A DNA stretch of 60,746 nucleotides from a virus. Taxonomy: Duplodnaviria; Caudoviricetes. The translations under genes and the position numbers were made by a program. The DNA lies in the IMG/VR virus record IMGVR_UViG_3300049491_000195, positions 1 to 60,746 of that record. One strand, 5' to 3'. Positions within the stretch are counted from its first letter, which is position 1. Each line of letters opens with the position of its first letter. Shown here piece by piece: positions 3,607 to 28,959 of the stretch. Under the pieces are notes generated by a model that was not told the origin of the DNA, ran no database searches, and saw only the letters and a program-made list of their open reading frames with translations.

Positions 3607-4436
3607 TTCTTCTTTGTTCCCTTCTTGCTGCCTTCCTTGCTTAATGGGTCGGAAGTAGTGCCATCGGCATATATTTCAGCCGCTGCGGCTGCCGAAGCGG
3701 GAGTTACCTTAGCAATAACTTCTTCCGGATCAGGCTTCAGTGAAGACTTAGATTCGAGATCAAGCCCAAGAGTTGCATCATTAAATCCTGCCAATACGTC
3801 TGGATCTTGTAAGGCTTTAACTTCTATCGGGTGTAATGTGCTTAGATCTACAGTCTTACGCATTTCTCTCATCTCTGTAGAAACTTGTGGCTGTGGTGCA
3901 TATGGTGGCATTGGTGTTGGCTTGTCATCCAGTGTGATAACAACATCAGAACCGTACTCAACCCAATCAGTGAAACGATTGCTGTCTGTAACTTCATGGA
4001 AGTGCATACACCATACGCCGGGGTTGGTTCCCTTAAAGTCAATATCATCAATCTTAACTGTTAGATTAGGACTTGATGTTTGTACGCTTGGAATGCGAAC
4101 GCTCAGCAATGGTACAAACATGCGCGATTGCCAGATGCCCTTGTTTAGCATTCCTAGCACCTTTTCGTGTAGGTGTGCTTGATAATCCAATGTTACCCAA
4201 AATCCACGATCCAGTAATGCGGTGATTGTCATATCCCAATATGCATCAACAGTGCTTTCAAATGAGTGGTTTGCACCCATAAAGATATGTGGTGCCTTGT
4301 GTTGGCGTGCTAGATCAACAATTTCGTCGACCGGTTGTTTGCCAACAACAAAGAGTGTCTTCTTAGAATAGGCAGGAGTATGTTCTACTTCTGGTCCTAC
4401 AAAATACATGATATCGTTGTGTCCGTCTCTGTTCAT
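3603..4436 (-). CDS. hypothetical protein in the base-modification cluster
   Basis: Likely start MNRDGH with GAGGA RBS; globular N-terminal domain plus low-complexity tail. Confidence 0.7.
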   Translation of the reverse strand: MNRDGHNDIMYFVGPEVEHTPAYSKKTLFVVGKQPVDEIVDLARQHKAPHIFMGANHSFESTVDAYWDMTITALLDRGFWVTLDYQAHLHEKVLGMLNKGIWQSRMFVPLLSVRIPSVQTSSPNLTVKIDDIDFKGTNPGVWCMHFHEVTDSNRFTDWVEYGSDVVITLDDKPTPMPPYAPQPQVSTEMREMRKTVDLSTLHPIEVKALQDPDVLAGFNDATLGLDLESKSSLKPDPEEVIAKVTPASAAAAAEIYADGTTSDPLSKEGSKKGTKKK

Positions 4437-4449
4437 AATTTTTCCTCGT

Positions 4450-5628
4450 TTAAAACTTGGCAACGCTAACATACTTTCTGTAGTCGTTTCCGTTTCTGGC
4501 CCATTGTTCTCCCTTACCCTCAAATACATCAACAGTTCTGTCAATCGTACCATTTTGCCAATGGCTAATCATTCCTGTCTCATATGTTGTTGGCTTTAGG
4601 AACATATTTTCTAACCTGTCCGCAGCATCCTCGACGCTCCACGGAATGTACATATTCTTAGCATTGTTGGCAAACACTTCAGGGAAACTGCGATATGCAG
4701 GATATAGAGTGAGAGTGCCAAATGTATCAGCTTCGCTTACTGTATTACTTACCCAGTCTTGAAGTGCGCAGTTAAATAAAACGACAGAATCCGCTAAAAG
4801 ACGGTAATAATCGTTCTTTTTCAAGCCAGTATACACTTTAAAGTTGGCATTCTTGCTATTTTCTAGTGCTTTTGCACGTTCTACATAAGCTGGGTTATTA
4901 CTCTTCAATTCTGGATGGCCACAGAATACAGCAAACTCTACAAGTGGGTGAGTCTTATAGAACCTCTCAGCCAAATCCATGTAAAAATTCGGCTGCTTCT
5001 CATCATCCCAGCGTGCGGCAAAACCTACTCGCTTTGTTCTGTTTACCAATGGCATTTGCAGTGGAACACGCTCTAAAACCTCACCTTTACCAAACGGTAA
5101 ACCGGTGACATAGATAGGTGCCTTCATTCCTGCAATGCGTAGATGTGCAACCATCTCTTCGCTTGCCACAAGGATACCATCTACAAACTCGTCTACCATC
5201 TGCTCAAACTTACGCATCCAGTTTGCCATACCTTCGCGGTTGACAAAATCATCCGGATCAATGGATTGTGCCAAGCAACGAACATAAACACGTGGCCTAT
5301 ATTCTGCAGGAACTTGGTCGAGGATATACGGTAGACTCTCGATACCAGGGGTGAACATATCTTCATAAAAAATAACGTCATCCGAAGTAATCTTACCTTC
5401 CTTCATCATCTTGATAAGGTTGGCAGTTTGCATCATGCTGTAATATGTGCGTCCGTGTGCATCGAGCACACTACCTGTCACAATTTTCTTGTCCGTAGTT
5501 AATTCAGCACCAGTGACCAATTCATAGTCAATACCACGGCGCTTAAACACACGTTCATTCCAGTCTTGTAATTGAAGTGTGTAACGTGCCTCATAAGACT
5601 CAAGTCCCATGTAAATTAATTTTCTCAT
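4450..5628 (-). CDS. GT-B fold glycosyltransferase (group 1-like)
   Basis: VGFAARWDDEKQP, YYRLLADS..., QDWVSNTVSEA (E-x7-E-like), YRSFPE. Confidence 0.75.
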   Translation of the reverse strand: MRKLIYMGLESYEARYTLQLQDWNERVFKRRGIDYELVTGAELTTDKKIVTGSVLDAHGRTYYSMMQTANLIKMMKEGKITSDDVIFYEDMFTPGIESLPYILDQVPAEYRPRVYVRCLAQSIDPDDFVNREGMANWMRKFEQMVDEFVDGILVASEEMVAHLRIAGMKAPIYVTGLPFGKGEVLERVPLQMPLVNRTKRVGFAARWDDEKQPNFYMDLAERFYKTHPLVEFAVFCGHPELKSNNPAYVERAKALENSKNANFKVYTGLKKNDYYRLLADSVVLFNCALQDWVSNTVSEADTFGTLTLYPAYRSFPEVFANNAKNMYIPWSVEDAADRLENMFLKPTTYETGMISHWQNGTIDRTVDVFEGKGEQWARNGNDYRKYVSVAKF

Positions 5629-5876
5629 AGCTGCAACCCTTTTCTAATAGCTAATACTGTCAATTCTTCGCCGCTCAGTACAACAGTGTTTTCTGGAGTT
5701 GTTCTAATCGGGCCACCATTCTTAAAGTCTAGTTCAGTAACTACAATAGACTTTCTATTCATCTTTACAACCTTGCAAATTTTCATTCTACCAGAAACGG
5801 CGACAAGCAGCCTCGATTTCTCTGTAATCGGCTGATTGAAAAAATCTACGTATTCTGTATTAGGTTCCGGAATCAT
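5625..5876 (-). CDS. small SH3/KOW-like protein, paralogue of 6145..6390
   Basis: DFFNQPI..., ICKVVKMNRK, VVLSGEE align with the paralogue. Confidence 0.65.
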   Translation of the reverse strand: MIPEPNTEYVDFFNQPITEKSRLLVAVSGRMKICKVVKMNRKSIVVTELDFKNGGPIRTTPENTVVLSGEELTVLAIRKGLQL

Positions 5877-6144
5877 TTTTCTTAATCGGGAGTGTGTGAA
5901 TTTCACCAACGGGACCAGTCATCGGCTGAACACCTATAATCTCATTTGCAATCAGTGTAGGTAATACTTTCCTAATCATTGGCATAACTATTCTGCGAAA
6001 ATCATCCGGTGGCGTTGGATGGGTTGCAAGACGACGGACAATTTCGTCCGCTTCTTCTTCTTTGGTCATTGGTACTTTAGGCTTCTCAACCTGGTTAACC
6101 TCGGACAATATCTTCTTTAAATCTTGAAATTCTTTATCAAACAC
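5860..6144 (-). CDS. small protein carrying an N-terminal fragment of the gp23-type major capsid protein
   Basis: RIVMPMIRKVLPTLIANEIIGVQPMTGPVGEIHTL matches the conserved gp23 motif (T4 VRRAIPNLIAFDICGVQPM). Confidence 0.8.
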   Translation of the reverse strand: MFDKEFQDLKKILSEVNQVEKPKVPMTKEEEADEIVRRLATHPTPPDDFRRIVMPMIRKVLPTLIANEIIGVQPMTGPVGEIHTLPIKKNDSGT

Positions 6145-6390
6145 TTATCCGCCCGCATTTTTTAATATGTATGCGAGCGCATCGGGGCCCGACAGCAATA
6201 CTGATTGGCTTGCATAAATGAGATATCCATCACCGTTGCGATGCTTGATAGGCATCACTCTCATCATTTTAGGATTAAGTTTTGTGATGGAACATATATG
6301 CATGGCATTATGATGAGAGATGGCAACGTAATTGCCCTCACTAAGTGGTTGTCCGAGGATGTCGGTGTGAATAGGTTTTTCTTTTGCCAT
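6145..6390 (-). CDS. small SH3/KOW-like protein, paralogue of 5625..5876
   Basis: DILGQPL..., ICSITKLNPK, VLLSGPD. Confidence 0.7.
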   Translation of the reverse strand: MAKEKPIHTDILGQPLSEGNYVAISHHNAMHICSITKLNPKMMRVMPIKHRNGDGYLIYASQSVLLSGPDALAYILKNAGG

Positions 6391-6623
6391 TGTGTCGCTG
6401 TAACTAATATCTGCTCATCAATTTCTTTTGCAATCTCAGCAGATAACGCCTCCATTATTTCTTTTTCTAAATCAAGTCCATGATAAGTTTCTAGGTCTTT
6501 TACGGATTCGATAGTCCACGTGGCCTCTAATCTACGGCCTTTCTTCTTCGGCGGAGTAGAAAGACGTTTGATAATCTCATCAGCTTCCTCTTCCCGAGTT
6601 AAGACTTTCTTCTCATCCGACAT
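6264..6623 (-). CDS. small protein carrying an internal fragment of the gp23-type major capsid protein
   Basis: RRLEATWTIESVKDLETYHGLDLEKEIMEALSAEIAKEIDEQIL matches gp23 (T4 RQLKAAYSIELAQDLRAVHGMDADAELSGILATEIMLEINREVV); 3' end overlaps the next gene by 127 nt. Confidence 0.78.
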   Translation of the reverse strand: MSDEKKVLTREEEADEIIKRLSTPPKKKGRRLEATWTIESVKDLETYHGLDLEKEIMEALSAEIAKEIDEQILVTATQWQKKNLFTPTSSDNHLVRAITLPSLIIMPCIYVPSQNLILK

Positions 6624-6897
6624 AGTCGATTTTGCGGATAAGTTTGTCTCCCATCCAGAAAGAACCTTCGCCGGTTGTTTCGGCATCCTTAAGCATCTTC
6701 CGATACTCTGCTTTTGTGATAGCTCTGGTATCAACAATTGTTTCTCCCAGGTGTTTCTGACTGAATTCCCCGAATGTGTCATCCGGATCACCCGAATCAA
6801 TCATTGTAACTTCGTCTTCGGCATGCGAAGCTTCCTTTGCGTCAATTACGTAACGCATACGCATGGTAACAATTGTGTCAACTACAAATAGTGGCAT
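6613..6897 (-). CDS. hypothetical protein
   Basis: ORF with RBS, tightly packed. Confidence 0.7.
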   Translation of the reverse strand: MPLFVVDTIVTMRMRYVIDAKEASHAEDEVTMIDSGDPDDTFGEFSQKHLGETIVDTRAITKAEYRKMLKDAETTGEGSFWMGDKLIRKIDYVG

Positions 6898-6899
6898 GA

Positions 6900-7370
6900 T
6901 TAGTATCCTCTCCAGAATTCTTCTGTTTTGTCATCTTTGGCGTCGATGCCGGCCAGCGCATTCTTAGTTTTCTCTTGTTGAGCAAGATCATATTCCAAAT
7001 CAATACGCTTCTTAAGGAATGAACGAATTGTATCTCGTTCAGCCCATATAAATGTTTCAAATCGGTGTAGACCATTGCACGGGCAATCCTCAACGAAGTT
7101 AATGCTGTTGAGTGTATGCCCCATAACACAATCCCAATCCCAGTGCAGAACTACACCTTCGGGGTTGTCTTTGTATTCCTGTTCGCAGTGCTCTTTCCAA
7201 CCTAAACCGCCATCGTCATCACCAAGGTAAGATTCGGCTGTTGGGCACAGGTGCATTCTTCCACACCATCCACATTCCATATCCGGTGACCCGGCACCAT
7301 TCTGTATCGAATCAACAAACATCTGCGATGGTGGCTTATCGTCTGTTCTGTATTCTTTCTTCGAGGTCAT
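6900..7370 (-). CDS. hypothetical Cys-rich (possible Zn-binding) protein
   Basis: CGWCGRMHLC and DCPCNG motifs. Confidence 0.65.
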   Translation of the reverse strand: MTSKKEYRTDDKPPSQMFVDSIQNGAGSPDMECGWCGRMHLCPTAESYLGDDDGGLGWKEHCEQEYKDNPEGVVLHWDWDCVMGHTLNSINFVEDCPCNGLHRFETFIWAERDTIRSFLKKRIDLEYDLAQQEKTKNALAGIDAKDDKTEEFWRGY

Positions 7371-7548
7371 ATATTCTTTTTTCTAAACGTACCATTTCTT
7401 TGCGCCAAGAATCATGTAAACCCAAATAATAATCCCTTTGCCGTTCATCCAATGAGAATATAAATTCAGCATTGCGTTGAATAGCTGACTTGATTGCTAT
7501 TTCTATTTCGCTATCAGATTTGCACCATGCTATAAATCTTTTTATCAT
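7336..7548 (-). CDS. hypothetical protein
   Basis: ORF overlapping both neighbours. Confidence 0.55.
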   Translation of the reverse strand: MIKRFIAWCKSDSEIEIAIKSAIQRNAEFIFSLDERQRDYYLGLHDSWRKEMVRLEKRIYDLEERIQNRR

Positions 7549-26736: not shown

Positions 26737-28959
26737 TTATACCACTACTGTTTCCACTACAGGTTCAAAAACATCTACATGGATCTCATCATTGATGCAA
26801 TCCGCATTTGCTCGTCCACCCTTTGTAAGTCTGCCAAACAAGATTTCCTTTGACAGTGGAATCTTGACAAGCTTCTCAAAGAGCCTTTCAAACGGTCTTG
26901 CACCCATCTTTGGATCCAAGCCGTGCTGTGCAAGCCAATCGCGTGCCTGTTGTGTTACATTCAATGTAACATTCTTCGGAGCAAGCAATACCTCAGTCTT
27001 CTCAACTTCAGCGTTGACGATAAGGTTCATCTCAACCAATGTGAGCTTATTGAACCTAACAATGCCGTCCAAACGGTTTCTAAACTCGGGACTGAAGAAT
27101 CGCTTGATCTCCTTTTCCACCGCACCAGAGTTGTCCTGATCACCAAAGCCAATCTTGAGCTTTTCCGCATCGGCAGAACCCAAGTTAGCAGACAAGATGA
27201 TAATGACATTTGAGAAGTCAACGGTCTTGCCCTTAGCGGATGTCAATCTTCCATCATCCATAACTTGCAAGAGCACCGTCATAACATCAGGGTGCGCCTT
27301 ATCAACTTCGTCCAGCAACAATACGCAAGTTGGATTGGTATCAACTGCCTGGATAAGTTGTCCTTCGCCCATTTTGCCCTCACCGTGGCCAACGTAGCCC
27401 GGAGGTGCACCAATAAGCTTGGATACAGTGTGCTTCTCCATGTATTCCGACAAGTCGAAGCGAACAAACTTCACTCCAAGAGCCTTGGCCAGCTGTTTTG
27501 CTGTGTAGGTCTTACCAGTACCGGTTGTACCAGTAAACAAGAACGAACCAATAGGCTTGGTAGGATTACGCAAGCCTGCCTTAGAAAGGAAGATTGCTGT
27601 TGTCAATGTGTCGATTGCTTCATCCTGACCATACACTGCGTTCTTAACACGCGGAGCAAGGTTGGATAAAGAGTCATTTTCCTTCATATCCATCATCTGC
27701 GGAGGAATCTTAGCAAGCTTACTGGCCTGTGTCAATACCAGGTCCTGCGTTACTACTTTTTCCTCTATGAGCTTGGCCATAGCGCCTGCCGAGTCCATAA
27801 TATCGATGGCCTTGTCTGGGAAAAACTTGTTCTTCATATAGCGGTCTGCCAAGTCAACGCAAAGGTCCAGGGAACCTGCTTCAAAGGTAACACCGTGGAA
27901 CTTCTCGTATTGGTAAGCAATGCCTGCCAGGATGAGCTTTGTCTGCTCGGCGGATGGCTGCTCAATGTCGTACTTTTGGAAACGACGTAGCAGAGCCTTG
28001 TCCTTTTCAAAGTGTTCGTGGAACTCGTCGTAAGTGGTTGCACCCACGCACATGAGTTGACCCTTAGCAAGCATCGGCTTCAGCAAATTACCTGCATCCA
28101 TCTGGCTGCCAGTTGTTGAACCTGCACCAAGGATCATGTGTATTTCGTCGATGAACATAATGCAGTTTCCAAGCTTCTTAACTTGATCCAGCACACCCTT
28201 CAGACGTTCTTCAAAATCACCACGGAACTTGGTACCTGCAAGCAATGCACCCAAGTCCAAACTGTAAACAACCTTGTCTTGTAGGGCCTTTGGTACTTCC
28301 TTCTTGACGATCTTGAATGCAAGTCCTTCCGCAAGTGCTGTTTTACCAACACCGGGTTCACCCACATAGACCACATTGTTCTTCTTGCGACGTGCCAAGA
28401 TTTCAATGGTATCCTTAACTTCCTTCTCTCGTCCAATAACAGGGTCGATGGAACCGTCTGCTGCTTCTTTGTTCAAGTTGCGTGCATACATATCCAATGG
28501 GGATTCTTCGGGTTGTCCCGGTGTTCCCTTTTCATCCGACTTACGCAATTGTGCGATGATCTTTTCACGGTTCACGCCATTCTTACCAAGGAAGTAATAT
28601 GCGTGACTTGTTTCCTCACTAAGAATGCTTAATAGCACCGCTTCATTCGTGAGCTCGTTGCGTCCACTGAACACAAGTTGTGTCAGGGCGCGCTGAAATG
28701 TACGTTGCAGGACTGCTGTACGCTTTGCAGGAACATCTTTCAATGCTTCCGGCTTCTTAAGCTCGGGCTGTCCAAGAAACTGAATTACATCAGCTTTGAT
28801 TTTGGCTGGCTGTGCGCTAATGGAGAGAATCAGTTCGTTAACATCCTTCTCATGAAGCAATGACAACAAAATGTGTTCCAATGTAACATATTCGTGATTG
28901 TTATCATTGGCGATCGATACTGCACGTTCGATCATCTTCTCTACTTTCTTTGTACTCAT
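26737..28959 (-). CDS. clpA: ATP-dependent Clp protease ATPase ClpA
   Basis: N-domain HEYVTLEH; two AAA+ modules (GEPGVGKT, GTTGTGKT); IGF ClpP-docking loop; no M-domain. Confidence 0.93.
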   Translation of the reverse strand: MSTKKVEKMIERAVSIANDNNHEYVTLEHILLSLLHEKDVNELILSISAQPAKIKADVIQFLGQPELKKPEALKDVPAKRTAVLQRTFQRALTQLVFSGRNELTNEAVLLSILSEETSHAYYFLGKNGVNREKIIAQLRKSDEKGTPGQPEESPLDMYARNLNKEAADGSIDPVIGREKEVKDTIEILARRKKNNVVYVGEPGVGKTALAEGLAFKIVKKEVPKALQDKVVYSLDLGALLAGTKFRGDFEERLKGVLDQVKKLGNCIMFIDEIHMILGAGSTTGSQMDAGNLLKPMLAKGQLMCVGATTYDEFHEHFEKDKALLRRFQKYDIEQPSAEQTKLILAGIAYQYEKFHGVTFEAGSLDLCVDLADRYMKNKFFPDKAIDIMDSAGAMAKLIEEKVVTQDLVLTQASKLAKIPPQMMDMKENDSLSNLAPRVKNAVYGQDEAIDTLTTAIFLSKAGLRNPTKPIGSFLFTGTTGTGKTYTAKQLAKALGVKFVRFDLSEYMEKHTVSKLIGAPPGYVGHGEGKMGEGQLIQAVDTNPTCVLLLDEVDKAHPDVMTVLLQVMDDGRLTSAKGKTVDFSNVIIILSANLGSADAEKLKIGFGDQDNSGAVEKEIKRFFSPEFRNRLDGIVRFNKLTLVEMNLIVNAEVEKTEVLLAPKNVTLNVTQQARDWLAQHGLDPKMGARPFERLFEKLVKIPLSKEILFGRLTKGGRANADCINDEIHVDVFEPVVETVVV

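What the first reader, a model, noticed from the sequence alone, without database searches (positions are those of the whole stretch)
5625..6623. Duplicated two-gene cassette displaying two different fragments of the major capsid protein
Seen: the layout is A2-B2-A1-B1. A2 (6264-6623) and A1 (5860-6144) share a leader, [LM]T[RK]EEEADEI[IV][KR]RL[SA]T-x-P. After it, A1 carries the gp23 segment RIVMPMIRKVLPTLIANEIIGVQPMTGPVGEIHTL, while A2 carries a different segment, RRLEATWTIESVKDLETYHGLDLEKEIMEALSAEIAKEIDEQIL. B1 and B2 are paralogous ~82-aa SH3-like proteins. Known: both segments are highly conserved gp23 motifs, and some defence systems (e.g. CapRelSJ46, Lit) are triggered by capsid protein. 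Inference: intact ORFs with a shared non-capsid leader do not look like random decay. They may be capsid-mimic decoys that titrate capsid sensors, or dominant-negative inhibitors of assembly by competing phages.
Basis: partly seen in the sequence, partly recalled or inferred. Interest (0 to 1): 0.88.

Follow-up and report, generated by a model that had tools for sequence, protein, structure and literature searches.

The report
Conserved capsid-fragment miniproteins in jumbo phage
An uncultured giant phage keeps, under selection, tiny genes that join short conserved pieces of the major capsid protein to one invariant helix, next to small SH3-like partner genes; this gene family appears undescribed and may work by mimicking the capsid protein.

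Summary
On the minus strand, four tightly packed genes lie in the order A2-B2-A1-B1. A1 matches Pfam Gp23 positions 3-44 (E 2.5e-12) and A2 matches positions 146-195 (E 1.9e-13). Both carry the motif T-x-EEEADEI[IV]-x-RL followed by prolines. B1 and B2 are distant paralogues (27% identity) with a predicted SH3/Tudor-like barrel.

This is not decay. Dozens of short homologues (63-140 aa) occur on phage contigs from metagenomes. The leader's core is invariant, while its synonymous sites are nearly saturated. The leader was found in no protein of 250 aa or more. The cassette always occupies one genomic slot, but its make-up varies: the leader precedes or links three capsid modules in several orders.

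The function is not shown. My best reading (about 0.35) is molecular mimicry: soluble copies of the most conserved, partner-contacting capsid segments compete for a factor that recognises unassembled capsid protein, most plausibly a host capsid sensor. A1's segment aligns to T4 gp23 95-127, which I take to be the Gol region. Rival readings are interference with capsid assembly, a role in the phage's own head assembly, targeting of EF-Tu or a chaperonin, and debris. The phage's own capsid gene, the timing of expression and any binding partner are all unknown.

The parts
6264..6623 (-). A2: leader + E-loop-equivalent strand + short helix + spine-helix piece of gp23-type capsid protein. The conserved core is 6393-6623 (77 aa). 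The remaining tail overlaps B2 in another frame.
   Evidence: ORF. Pfam Gp23 positions 146-195, E 1.9e-13. Residues 26-73 align to T4 gp23 260-307, 35% identity. Ten homologues, all with the leader. The tail is absent in most relatives.
6549..6599 (-). A2 leader (residues 9-25, T-R-EEEADEII-K-RL-STPP)
   Evidence: T9, E11-I18, R20 and L21 are invariant in 10 of 10 A2-type proteins. The AlphaFold2 model has a helix at 10-22.
6393..6542 (-). A2 capsid-derived piece (residues 28-77)
6145..6390 (-). B2: 81-aa protein with a predicted SH3/Tudor-like barrel. Its start lies inside the A2 ORF, and its stop abuts A1's GTG start.
   Evidence: 21 distinct family members found in the held loci. Model pLDDT 81.9. 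Foldseek matches. phrog_2251 (unknown function), E 3.9e-5.
5860..6144 (-). A1: remnant of the capsid protein's N-terminus + leader + the most conserved N-terminal block of gp23 (the ...GVQPM... segment)
   Evidence: Pfam Gp23 positions 3-44, E 2.5e-12. Residues 53-85 align to T4 gp23 95-127, 52% identity. Homologues P0002-P0020. The N-terminus aligns with capsid protein N-termini.
6016..6066 (-). A1 leader (residues 27-43)
   Evidence: E31, A32, D33, E34, I35, R38, L39 and P43 are invariant in 20 of 20 A1-type proteins.
5878..6003 (-). A1 capsid-derived piece (residues 48-89)
5625..5876 (-). B1: 83-aa paralogue of B2. Its ATG lies 17 nt upstream of A1's stop, and its stop overlaps the ATG of the next gene.
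   Evidence: Orthologues in L073 and L088.
6613..6897 (-). up94: conserved upstream neighbour (94 aa, no family). Its stop overlaps A2's start.
6900..7370 (-). p156: conserved Cys-rich upstream flank of the variable slot
4450..5628 (-). GT392: conserved glycosyltransferase-like downstream flank of the slot
   Evidence: Weak Pfam Glycos_transf_1 match. 75-85% identical in relatives. Synteny.

Best explanation
The locus is an accessory operon of an uncultured jumbo-phage clade found in freshwater samples. The clade is a distant relative of the Rak2-like, Atu_ph07 and Phosso group. The operon encodes modular 'capsid-piece' miniproteins (A) and small SH3/Tudor-like proteins (B).

Each A protein consists of an invariant amphipathic helix followed by prolines (L: T-x-[ED]EEADEI[IV]-x-RL-x-x-PP), joined to one or two short, highly conserved segments of the gp23-type major capsid protein:
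- Q is the N-terminal ...PMIRK...GVQPM block, which aligns to T4 gp23 95-127.
- E is the E-loop-equivalent strand ...RKLxAxWT...
- S is the short P-domain helix plus the start of the spine helix; together with E it aligns to T4 gp23 260-307.

Origin (inferred from the alignments): a partial 5' duplicate of the capsid gene lost its large middle and C-terminal domains. It acquired the L element at the junction between propeptide and mature protein. It then diversified by duplication, deletion and fusion inside one genomic slot.

Mechanism (inferred, not shown): the A proteins cannot form a capsid fold. Instead they display, in soluble form, the segments through which unassembled capsid protein is contacted by other proteins. 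They therefore act by molecular mimicry, competing for a factor that recognises these segments. The most plausible target is a host abortive-infection sensor of capsid protein, which would make the A proteins decoys made ahead of the late flood of real capsid protein. B is made together with A and is its likely partner or adaptor.

I put about 0.9 on the descriptive part (a real, selected, modular family) and about 0.35 on the mimicry/decoy mechanism.
For: Shown:
1. The gp23 profile matches are significant, and the alignments to T4 gp23 are clear.
2. Family conservation. 52 short proteins (51-165 aa) match A1 at E <= 0.001; I fetched 25 of them, and 20 of those 25 carry the leader. All 10 of 10 A2 matches carry it.
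3. Protein-level selection on the leader. Pooled over 17 genes, pS = 0.72 and pN = 0.19. The EEADEI core has no amino-acid change while third codon positions vary freely and Arg codons switch between CGN and AGR. The Q block gives pN/pS = 0.44 over 9 genes and keeps the residues that capsid proteins conserve.
4. The leader is confined to miniproteins. There were 0 hits among proteins of 166-2000 aa. In the best 150 profile hits from 1.84 billion representatives, 21 carry the leader, all of 63-137 aa, and 0 of the 15 proteins of 250 aa or more do. Of 49 motif-bearing frames in the viral and metagenome loci, 27 are family members, none longer than 178 aa from stop to stop; the other 22 are unrelated proteins.
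5. Modular shuffling. The orders L-Q, E-L-Q, S-L-Q, L-Q-L, L-E-S, E-L-S, L-E-L-S and L-S all occur.
6. Fixed slot with variable content. In 20 non-redundant loci the A genes lie beside at least one of the conserved neighbours p156, up94, B2 or GT392. 17 of 20 have B2 next to an A gene, and the other 3 are cut by a contig end.
7. All starts and stops in the window overlap or abut, so these are packed coding genes rather than spacer debris.
8. The A2 core is predicted as three helices with no compact fold (pTM 0.32), as expected for a binding peptide.

From the literature (passages read):
- The Gol region is a 29-residue stretch in the first quarter of gp23. It is the most conserved part of gp23, binds EF-Tu and is sensed by Lit (PMC3014915).
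- Capsid proteins are common defence triggers (PMC9712102).
- The gp23 N-terminal region contacts the scaffold and later forms inter-capsomer arms. Residues 268-287 lie by the short acidic helix that makes inter-capsomer contacts. Residues 292, 306 and 307 are in the spine helix and govern dependence on gp31 (PMC9546572).

Inferred: the operon lies among replication-type genes such as DNA polymerase B. It is far from any head gene: no portal, prohead protease or full capsid gene was found in the window or in a related 211-kb record. This suggests a non-late accessory role.
Against: - There is no direct evidence of any binding partner, expression time or phenotype.
- In the only studied case, the isolated Gol peptide activates Lit (PMC3014915, PMC9712102). 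A faithful mimic might therefore trigger a sensor rather than blunt it.
- No defence sensor is known for the E and S segments.
- The phage's own capsid gene is not on any record I could read. I cannot tell whether the pieces copy self or non-self. I also cannot exclude that gene conversion from the real capsid gene, rather than selection, keeps the Q, E and S blocks similar. That would not explain the leader.
- The leader motif alone is a common helix type; 22 unrelated proteins matched the DNA pattern.
- The composition is unstable: A1 or B1 is often absent, so no single member is essential.
- PADLOC and NCBIfam give no support.
Confidence: 0.35

Rival explanations
1. Assembly interference. 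The A proteins bind capsid subunits through the very segments that make scaffold, intra-capsomer and inter-capsomer contacts. They would poison head assembly of co-infecting T4-like or jumbo phages, giving dominant-negative exclusion of competitors.
For: The Q, E and S segments map to gp23 regions that contact the scaffold or neighbouring subunits (PMC9546572 passages). These segments are the most widely conserved in the family: A1 matches capsid genes in 1727 phage records, so one peptide could hit many competitors. The variable accessory slot fits a conflict function.
Against: The phage's own capsid protein is probably gp23-like too, because its relatives' are. It would then be poisoned as well unless protected, and no such protection is known. 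There are no data on co-infection. Fragments this short may bind too weakly.
Confidence: 0.17
2. Own-head morphogenesis accessory. The A proteins regulate folding, timing or maturation of the phage's own capsid protein. Examples would be holding subunits unassembled, acting in trans as folding templates, or serving as pseudo-substrates of the prohead protease at the junction between propeptide and mature protein, where the leader sits in A1-type proteins.
For: In A1-type proteins with a full N-terminal domain, the leader occupies the place where related capsid proteins have their propeptide-to-mature junction. The S segment covers the spine-helix positions whose mutation bypasses the gp31 co-chaperonin in T4 (PMC9546572 passages).
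Against: The genes are not in a head module. Their number and kind differ between close relatives, which is unusual for core morphogenesis factors. That the maturation cleavage site lies at this junction, and its sequence motif, are recalled and were not tested.
Confidence: 0.15
3. Host-factor targeting. A1 binds EF-Tu as the T4 Gol region does, and A2 engages the chaperonin or another folding factor. Together they would tune translation or folding capacity for the phage.
For: Gol binds EF-Tu domains II/III and inhibits its GTPase. The conservation of the region has been suggested to reflect a general interaction between gp23 and EF-Tu (PMC3014915 passages). A1 residues 53-85 align to gp23 95-127 at 52% identity.
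Against: The exact Gol boundaries are recalled, not verified here. This reading gives no reason for the leader or for B. It is purely by analogy.
Confidence: 0.1
4. Non-functional debris: left-overs of capsid-gene recombination in a hotspot, kept open by chance, by gene conversion or by hitch-hiking with B or with mobile endonucleases.
For: The slot rearranges often. A related record has an HNH-like ORF next to the cassette. In the window and in two relatives, A2 runs on into B2 in a frame that looks meaningless.
Against: The leader is invariant with nearly saturated synonymous sites. The family persists across proteins only 50-65% identical. The genes are tightly overlapping. No DNA repeats link the copies.
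Confidence: 0.06

Closest known systems
Gol peptide of T4 gp23 (trigger of the Lit protease of prophage e14)
   Same: It is a short stretch from the first quarter of gp23, the most conserved part of the protein, and is active on its own as a peptide (PMC3014915, passages read). A1's capsid piece aligns to T4 gp23 95-127 at 52% identity.
   Different: Gol is a laboratory-defined part of the full capsid protein, not a separate natural gene. It has no leader helix and no partner gene. It activates a defence rather than countering one. The exact Gol coordinates are recalled, not verified here.
T4 alt.-1 / alt.-2 (annotated old partial duplication of the 5' part of gene alt)
   Same: Small ORFs derived from the first part of a virion-protein gene, with new stops and starts (annotation seen).
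   Different: They lie directly beside the parent gene. No added conserved motif, modular shuffling or evidence of selection is known to me. The A genes lie far from any head gene.
Full-length gp23-type major capsid proteins (Pfam PF07068) and the vertex paralogue gp24
   Same: The Q, E and S blocks are homologous to them.
   Different: The A proteins cover only 42 and 50 of the 376 profile positions. They lack the A-domain, most of the P-domain and the insertion domain, so they cannot form the HK97 fold.
Mimicry-type phage anti-defence proteins (decoys and sponges; general class)
   Same: They are small, fast-turning-over accessory genes in variable slots, and the proposed action is competition for a host sensor.
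   Different: Membership is untested. In four literature searches I found no described decoy built from capsid-protein fragments.
Capsid-derived interference genes of animal genomes (e.g. Gag-derived restriction factors; recalled, no call)
   Same: The concept is the same: a fragment or copy of a capsid gene kept to interfere with capsid function.
   Different: They are host-encoded, from a different fold and kingdom. This is an analogy only.

Membership tests
Pfam PF07068 Gp23 (major capsid protein) | Significant match to the family profile | tested here: met
   A1 47.3 bits and A2 51 bits, against a cut-off of 24.4 bits.
Pfam PF07068 Gp23 (major capsid protein) | Coverage of the whole HK97-type fold (A and P domains), so that it can act as a capsid subunit | tested here: not met
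   Matches cover profile positions 3-44 and 146-195 of 376. The proteins are 94 aa and about 77 aa. The A2 core model has three helices, pTM 0.32, and no compact fold.
Gol-type peptide (Lit/EF-Tu) | Homology to the Gol region of T4 gp23 | tested here: inconclusive
   A1 residues 53-85 align to gp23 95-127, 52% identity. The review places Gol in the first quarter of gp23 and calls it the most conserved region (PMC3014915 passages). The exact residue numbers are only recalled.
Gol-type peptide (Lit/EF-Tu) | Binds EF-Tu and enables Lit cleavage | not testable with these tools
   This needs biochemistry.
Anti-defence decoy | Binds a defence sensor and lowers its activation; expressed before the trigger | not testable with these tools
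   No RNA run was listed (see Tried and rejected). No sensor is known for this host.
SH3-like small barrels (Tudor / chromo / KOW class), for B1 and B2 | Five-strand barrel fold similar to solved members | tested here: inconclusive
   Model pLDDT 81.9. The best Foldseek E-value is 0.022, and there are 0 matches at E <= 0.001. PHF1/PHF19 Tudor domains give target TM-scores of 0.73-0.78 and rmsd of 1.9-2.5 over 57-58 columns.
Pfam PF23835 DUF7205, for B2 | Match to the family HMM | tested here: not met
   The language-model look-alike score is 0.94. However, hmmscan found no Pfam family at E <= 1 for B1 or B2, and the HMM search of the window found none at E <= 0.1.
Partial-duplication remnants beside the parent gene (T4 alt.-1/alt.-2 type) | Derived from the 5' part of the parent gene | tested here: met
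   The N-termini of A1-type proteins align with capsid protein N-termini.
Partial-duplication remnants beside the parent gene (T4 alt.-1/alt.-2 type) | Adjacent to the parent gene and without added conserved elements | tested here: not met
   There is no full capsid gene in the 60.7-kb window or in a related 211-kb record. An invariant leader has been added.

The most novel reading that the evidence does not exclude
A phage-encoded 'epitope display' system. A shuffling set of miniproteins each presents one conserved capsid-protein epitope (Gol-like block, E-loop strand or spine helix) on a common adaptor helix that the co-translated SH3/Tudor-like B protein reads. Together they neutralise host immune sensors that detect unassembled gp23-type capsid protein. 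This would be the first natural anti-defence decoy built from fragments of the trigger itself.
Probability: 0.2. Interest if true: 0.9.

Novelty: categorically new. Interest (0 to 1): 0.72.

Why it matters
Capsid proteins are among the commonest triggers of bacterial abortive-infection systems, but how phages shield this unavoidable signal is largely unknown. Here a natural, selected family is built from the most conserved, partner-contacting pieces of the capsid protein, each tied to one invariant helix and paired with a small barrel protein. This gives a concrete and easily cloned set of 70-140-aa peptides. With them one can test capsid mimicry, EF-Tu/Gol biology, or peptide inhibition of HK97-type assembly.

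Even if the function turns out to lie in morphogenesis, the architecture would remain unusual. A structural gene has been cut into modules, re-joined in several orders and kept under selection far from the head genes.

The family also matters for annotation and for gene-marker ecology: these short ORFs score above the Pfam Gp23 threshold and could be mistaken for capsid genes or pseudogenes.

Tried and rejected
- Nearest genomes. Megablast of 4400-7400 against 50,697 phage records gave no match. Blastn found only 62-77-nt matches of the Q block to capsid genes, plus a weak match of the glycosyltransferase-like gene. No cultured close relative exists; the best DNA polymerase identity is 42%.
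- B2 by tblastn against phage records: no match.
- PADLOC and NCBIfam on the four proteins and four neighbours: nothing useful.
- Search for the clade's own capsid gene. PF07068, portal (PF07230) and prohead protease (PF03420) searches of the window and nine related records found only fragments and no head genes. The protease model matched nowhere, controls included, so that blank is uninformative.
- Complex prediction of the A2 core with B2: no verdict (score 0.01, mark 0.32). This is no evidence either way.
- Expression. No RNA holder was listed for the stretch, so nothing can be said about expression. Laying contigs showed only presence and identity in two samples.
- DNA repeats in 5400-7000: only short chance-level families, and none linking the two leaders. 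Promoter-like sites were not above the shuffled expectation (18 against 18.8), and terminator-like sites were 8 against 6.0.
- Prokaryote genome scan with the leader pattern: 56 loci. The 40 motif-bearing frames found in them held no family member.
- P0063 (1194 aa, 19 matched stretches) is a spurious repeat protein, not a relative.
- P0113, a 223-aa 'mini capsid protein', could be an evolutionary intermediate. A scan for its locus returned only ordinary full-length capsid genes, so its context is unknown.
- I considered and rejected a simple split of one capsid gene by insertion of B2. The genomic order (A2 before A1) is the reverse of the order in the capsid protein, and both pieces carry the leader.
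- I considered a programmed -1 frameshift fusing A2 to B2. B2 is in the -1 frame, but there is no canonical slippery heptamer, and most relatives stop A2 just after B2's start. I did not pursue it.
- I considered silent donor cassettes for capsid-gene conversion. I rejected this because the pieces are the invariant parts of the protein, not the variable ones, and the leader would then have no role.
- The resemblance of the leader to the last helix of ribosomal protein L7/L12 and to many enzyme C-termini is treated as a generic helix motif.
- Prior description. Searches found no paper on capsid-fragment genes or capsid decoys in phages. The library lacks most subscription journals.
- Supplementary files of PMC9546572 (per-residue domain maps) were not available and could refine the mapping of Q, E and S.
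Full report
**What is there**

Positions 5625-6623 of the window carry four minus-strand ORFs in the order A2 (6264-6623), B2 (6145-6390), A1 (5860-6144, GTG start) and B1 (5625-5876). They are packed without spacers:
- The stop of the upstream gene up94 overlaps A2's ATG.
- B2's ATG lies inside the A2 frame.
- B2's stop abuts A1's GTG.
- B1's ATG lies 17 nt before A1's stop.
- B1's stop overlaps the ATG of the next gene.

Pfam Gp23 (PF07068) matches A1 residues 48-89 to profile positions 3-44 (E 2.5e-12). It matches A2 residues 28-77 to positions 146-195 (E 1.9e-13). Both are well over the curated cut-off, and PHROG 138 agrees. Against T4 gp23, A1 residues 53-85 align to residues 95-127 (52% identity) and A2 residues 26-73 align to residues 260-307 (35%).

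A1 and A2 share only the leader, with 12 of 18 residues identical. B1 and B2 are 27% identical (E 6e-11).

The sequence itself is sound. A deep contig spans it without a difference, and contigs from a second freshwater sample are identical over the parts they cover.

**The phage**

The window is a whole IMG/VR record estimated at 17% complete. It contains no full capsid gene. It encodes a family-B DNA polymerase and a ClpA/B-like ATPase, among other genes. The polymerase is at most 42% identical to those of Phosso, Atu_ph07 and the Rak2-like jumbo phages. There is no close DNA relative among 50,697 phage records. This is an uncultured jumbo-phage lineage.

**It is a family, not decay**

Searching 5.8 billion protein clusters for proteins of similar length gave 52 matches to A1. 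I fetched 25 of them, and 20 carry the leader. The same search gave 10 matches to A2, all with the leader. In the A2-type alignment T9, E11-I18, R20 and L21 are invariant. In 20 A1-type proteins E31-I35, R38, L39 and P43 are invariant, as is most of the ...P.I...P...A.EI..VQPM block.

At the codon level, 17 leader copies give pooled pS = 0.72 and pN = 0.19. The EEADEI core never changes, although third positions vary freely and arginine codons switch between CGN and AGR. There is no DNA repeat between the two leaders in the window. So the leader is kept by selection on the protein. The Q block gives pN/pS = 0.44 over 9 genes.

**The leader is confined to miniproteins**

- A search of longer proteins (166-2000 aa), using only the leader region of A1, returned nothing.
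- A profile of the A1 family, run against 1.84 billion representatives, gave 1931 hits at E <= 0.001. Among the best 150, 21 carry the leader, all of 63-137 aa. None of the 15 proteins of 250 aa or more does.
- A degenerate DNA pattern for the leader found 9 viral and 57 metagenome stretches. Of 49 distinct motif-bearing frames in the loci held, 27 are family members, none longer than 178 aa from stop to stop. The other 22 are unrelated proteins, which shows that the bare motif is a common helix type.
- The same pattern in 185,579 prokaryote genomes gave 56 stretches; the 40 motif-bearing frames in them held no family member.

**Modular build**

Three capsid modules recur:
- Q is the N-terminal conserved block.
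- E is the ...RKLxAxWT... strand.
- S is the short helix plus the start of the spine helix.

The leader (L) precedes or links them in many orders:
- L-Q (A1 and many others);
- E-L-Q (P0014);
- S-L-Q (P0072, P0076);
- L-Q-L (P0069);
- L-E-S (A2);
- E-L-S (L015, L030, L044, L073, L094);
- L-E-L-S (L031);
- L-S (L029, L076).

Longer A1-type proteins (P0007, P0011, P0013, P0065) begin with a clear copy of the capsid protein's N-terminal domain. In these the leader sits where related capsid proteins have the junction between propeptide and mature protein. The simplest history is as follows. A partial 5' duplicate of the capsid gene lost its large domains and gained the L element. It then duplicated, and the copies were cut down and fused in different ways. 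One 223-aa protein (P0113) looks like an intermediate, but its context could not be found.

**Fixed slot, fluid content**

In 20 non-redundant loci the A genes lie beside the same conserved neighbours. Upstream is the Cys-rich p156 and/or up94. Downstream is a glycosyltransferase-like gene that is 75-85% identical between relatives. 17 of 20 loci have a B2-type gene next to an A gene, and the other three end at a contig edge. The content varies:
- A2-B2-A1-B1 (window only);
- A2-B2-A1 (L060, L070, L076, and L027 with a degenerate first leader);
- A2-B2-B1 (L073, L088, L094);
- A2-B2;
- B2-A1;
- A1-A2-B2 (L029);
- B2-A2 (L005).

One relative also has a Q piece without a leader, fused to an unrelated Cys-rich domain elsewhere in its genome. 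Conserved flanks, rapid turnover inside the slot and small genes are the pattern of an accessory, conflict-type locus. That is an inference.

**The B proteins**

21 distinct B sequences were collected from the loci. The B2 model (pLDDT 81.9) is a five-strand barrel with a C-terminal helix. Its nearest solved folds are Tudor, chromo and other SH3-like small barrels, with weak statistics: best E 0.022, and target TM-scores up to 0.78 on PHF19/PHF1 Tudor domains. A language-model search points to DUF7205, but the HMM does not match. 'SH3-like' is therefore reasonable but not proven, and the ligand is unknown. The proline-rich stretch after the leader is a tempting candidate ligand, but this is untested.

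**What the pieces are in the capsid protein**

According to passages of PMC9546572:
- The gp23 N-terminal region up to about residue 105 is disordered and internal in the prohead. It probably touches the scaffold and later forms the N-arm and N-fist, which make extensive intra- and inter-capsomer contacts.
- Residues 268-287 lie by a short acidic P-domain helix that makes inter-capsomer charge contacts, and mutations there alter head length.
- Residues 292, 306 and 307 are in the spine helix and control the need for the gp31 co-chaperonin.

According to passages of PMC3014915, the Gol function maps to 29 residues in the first quarter of gp23. This is the most conserved part of the protein; it binds EF-Tu and enables cleavage by Lit. 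A1's piece lies in that block; the exact Gol numbering is my recollection. So A1 and A2 carry just those parts of the capsid protein that other proteins touch. On its own, the A2 core is predicted as three helices without a compact fold (pTM 0.32).

**How it most likely works**

The A proteins cannot be capsid subunits: they cover 42 and 50 of 376 profile positions. Selection keeps the same residues that capsid proteins keep, together with an unrelated invariant helix. They lie far from head genes and among replication-type genes.

The reading that fits most of this is molecular mimicry. Soluble copies of contact segments compete for a factor that recognises unassembled capsid protein. The most attractive target is a host capsid sensor, given that capsid proteins are frequent defence triggers (PMC9712102 passages) and that the Gol block is a known sensed element. 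I put about 0.35 on this.

The main weaknesses are these:
- Isolated Gol activates Lit rather than blocking it.
- No partner has been identified.
- The timing of expression is unknown.
- The phage's own capsid gene was not available for comparison.

The rival readings, with my estimates:
- dominant-negative interference with competitors' heads (0.17);
- a role in the phage's own head assembly or maturation (0.15);
- targeting of EF-Tu or a chaperonin (0.10);
- debris (0.06).

**Comparison and novelty**

The nearest known things are:
- the laboratory-defined Gol peptide;
- the annotated partial duplicates alt.-1 and alt.-2 of T4;
- the general class of mimicry-type anti-defence proteins.

None of these is a naturally encoded, selected, shuffling family of capsid-fragment proteins with a common adaptor helix and a paired barrel protein. 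Four full-text searches found no description of such genes, although the library is incomplete. I rate the architecture as new in kind and its function as open.

Noticed in passing
L025:4332-4904 (-), record G001: A 190-aa ORF with a leaderless Q piece (Pfam Gp23 positions 2-40, E 5e-10) at its N-terminus. It runs in one frame into an unrelated C-terminal part of about 130 aa with CxxC pairs, next to a MazG-like gene. The C-terminal part has no relative in any held locus.
   Followed up: partly
P0113 (223 aa, representative library; no locus): A 'mini capsid protein'. It has the N-terminal domain, a leader-like helix with PP, then the Q, E and S blocks and the C-terminal ...YCPY... motif, but no insertion domain or A-domain. 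It may be an intermediate between full capsid genes and the A family. A locus search returned only ordinary capsid genes.
   Followed up: partly
window 6264-6392 (-): The A2 frame stays open for about 42 codons through B2, which is in the -1 frame relative to A2. The same holds in two relatives (P0054, P0055), whereas most relatives stop A2 just after B2's start. There is no canonical slippery site.
   Followed up: no
L027:1990-2937 (-), record G006/G009: A 315-aa ORF with repeated Cys-pair motifs and an HNH-like C-terminus lies on the opposite strand between the cassette and the glycosyltransferase-like gene. This is read by eye and was not profiled. It may be a homing endonuclease in the variable slot.
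   Followed up: no
window 26737-28959 (-): A phage-encoded 740-aa ClpA/ClpB-like double AAA+ ATPase with a Clp_N domain (AAA_2 E 3e-56).
   Followed up: no
window 4450-5628 (-): The glycosyltransferase-like gene has a 704-nt DNA match (64.8% identity) to a hypothetical gene of Synechococcus phage BUCT-ZZ01. It also has a marginal Pfam GYF_2 hit just above the cut-off.
   Followed up: no
L099:11066-11451 (T4 record): The T4 annotation describes alt.-1 and alt.-2 as an old duplication of the first part of gene alt, with a new stop and start. This is a small precedent for retained partial copies of virion-protein genes.
   Followed up: no
P0063 (1194 aa): A repeat protein with 19 weak matches to the Q block ranked fourth in the profile search. 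By inspection it is an unrelated tandem repeat. It shows how short-motif profiles can accumulate score on repeats.
   Followed up: yes
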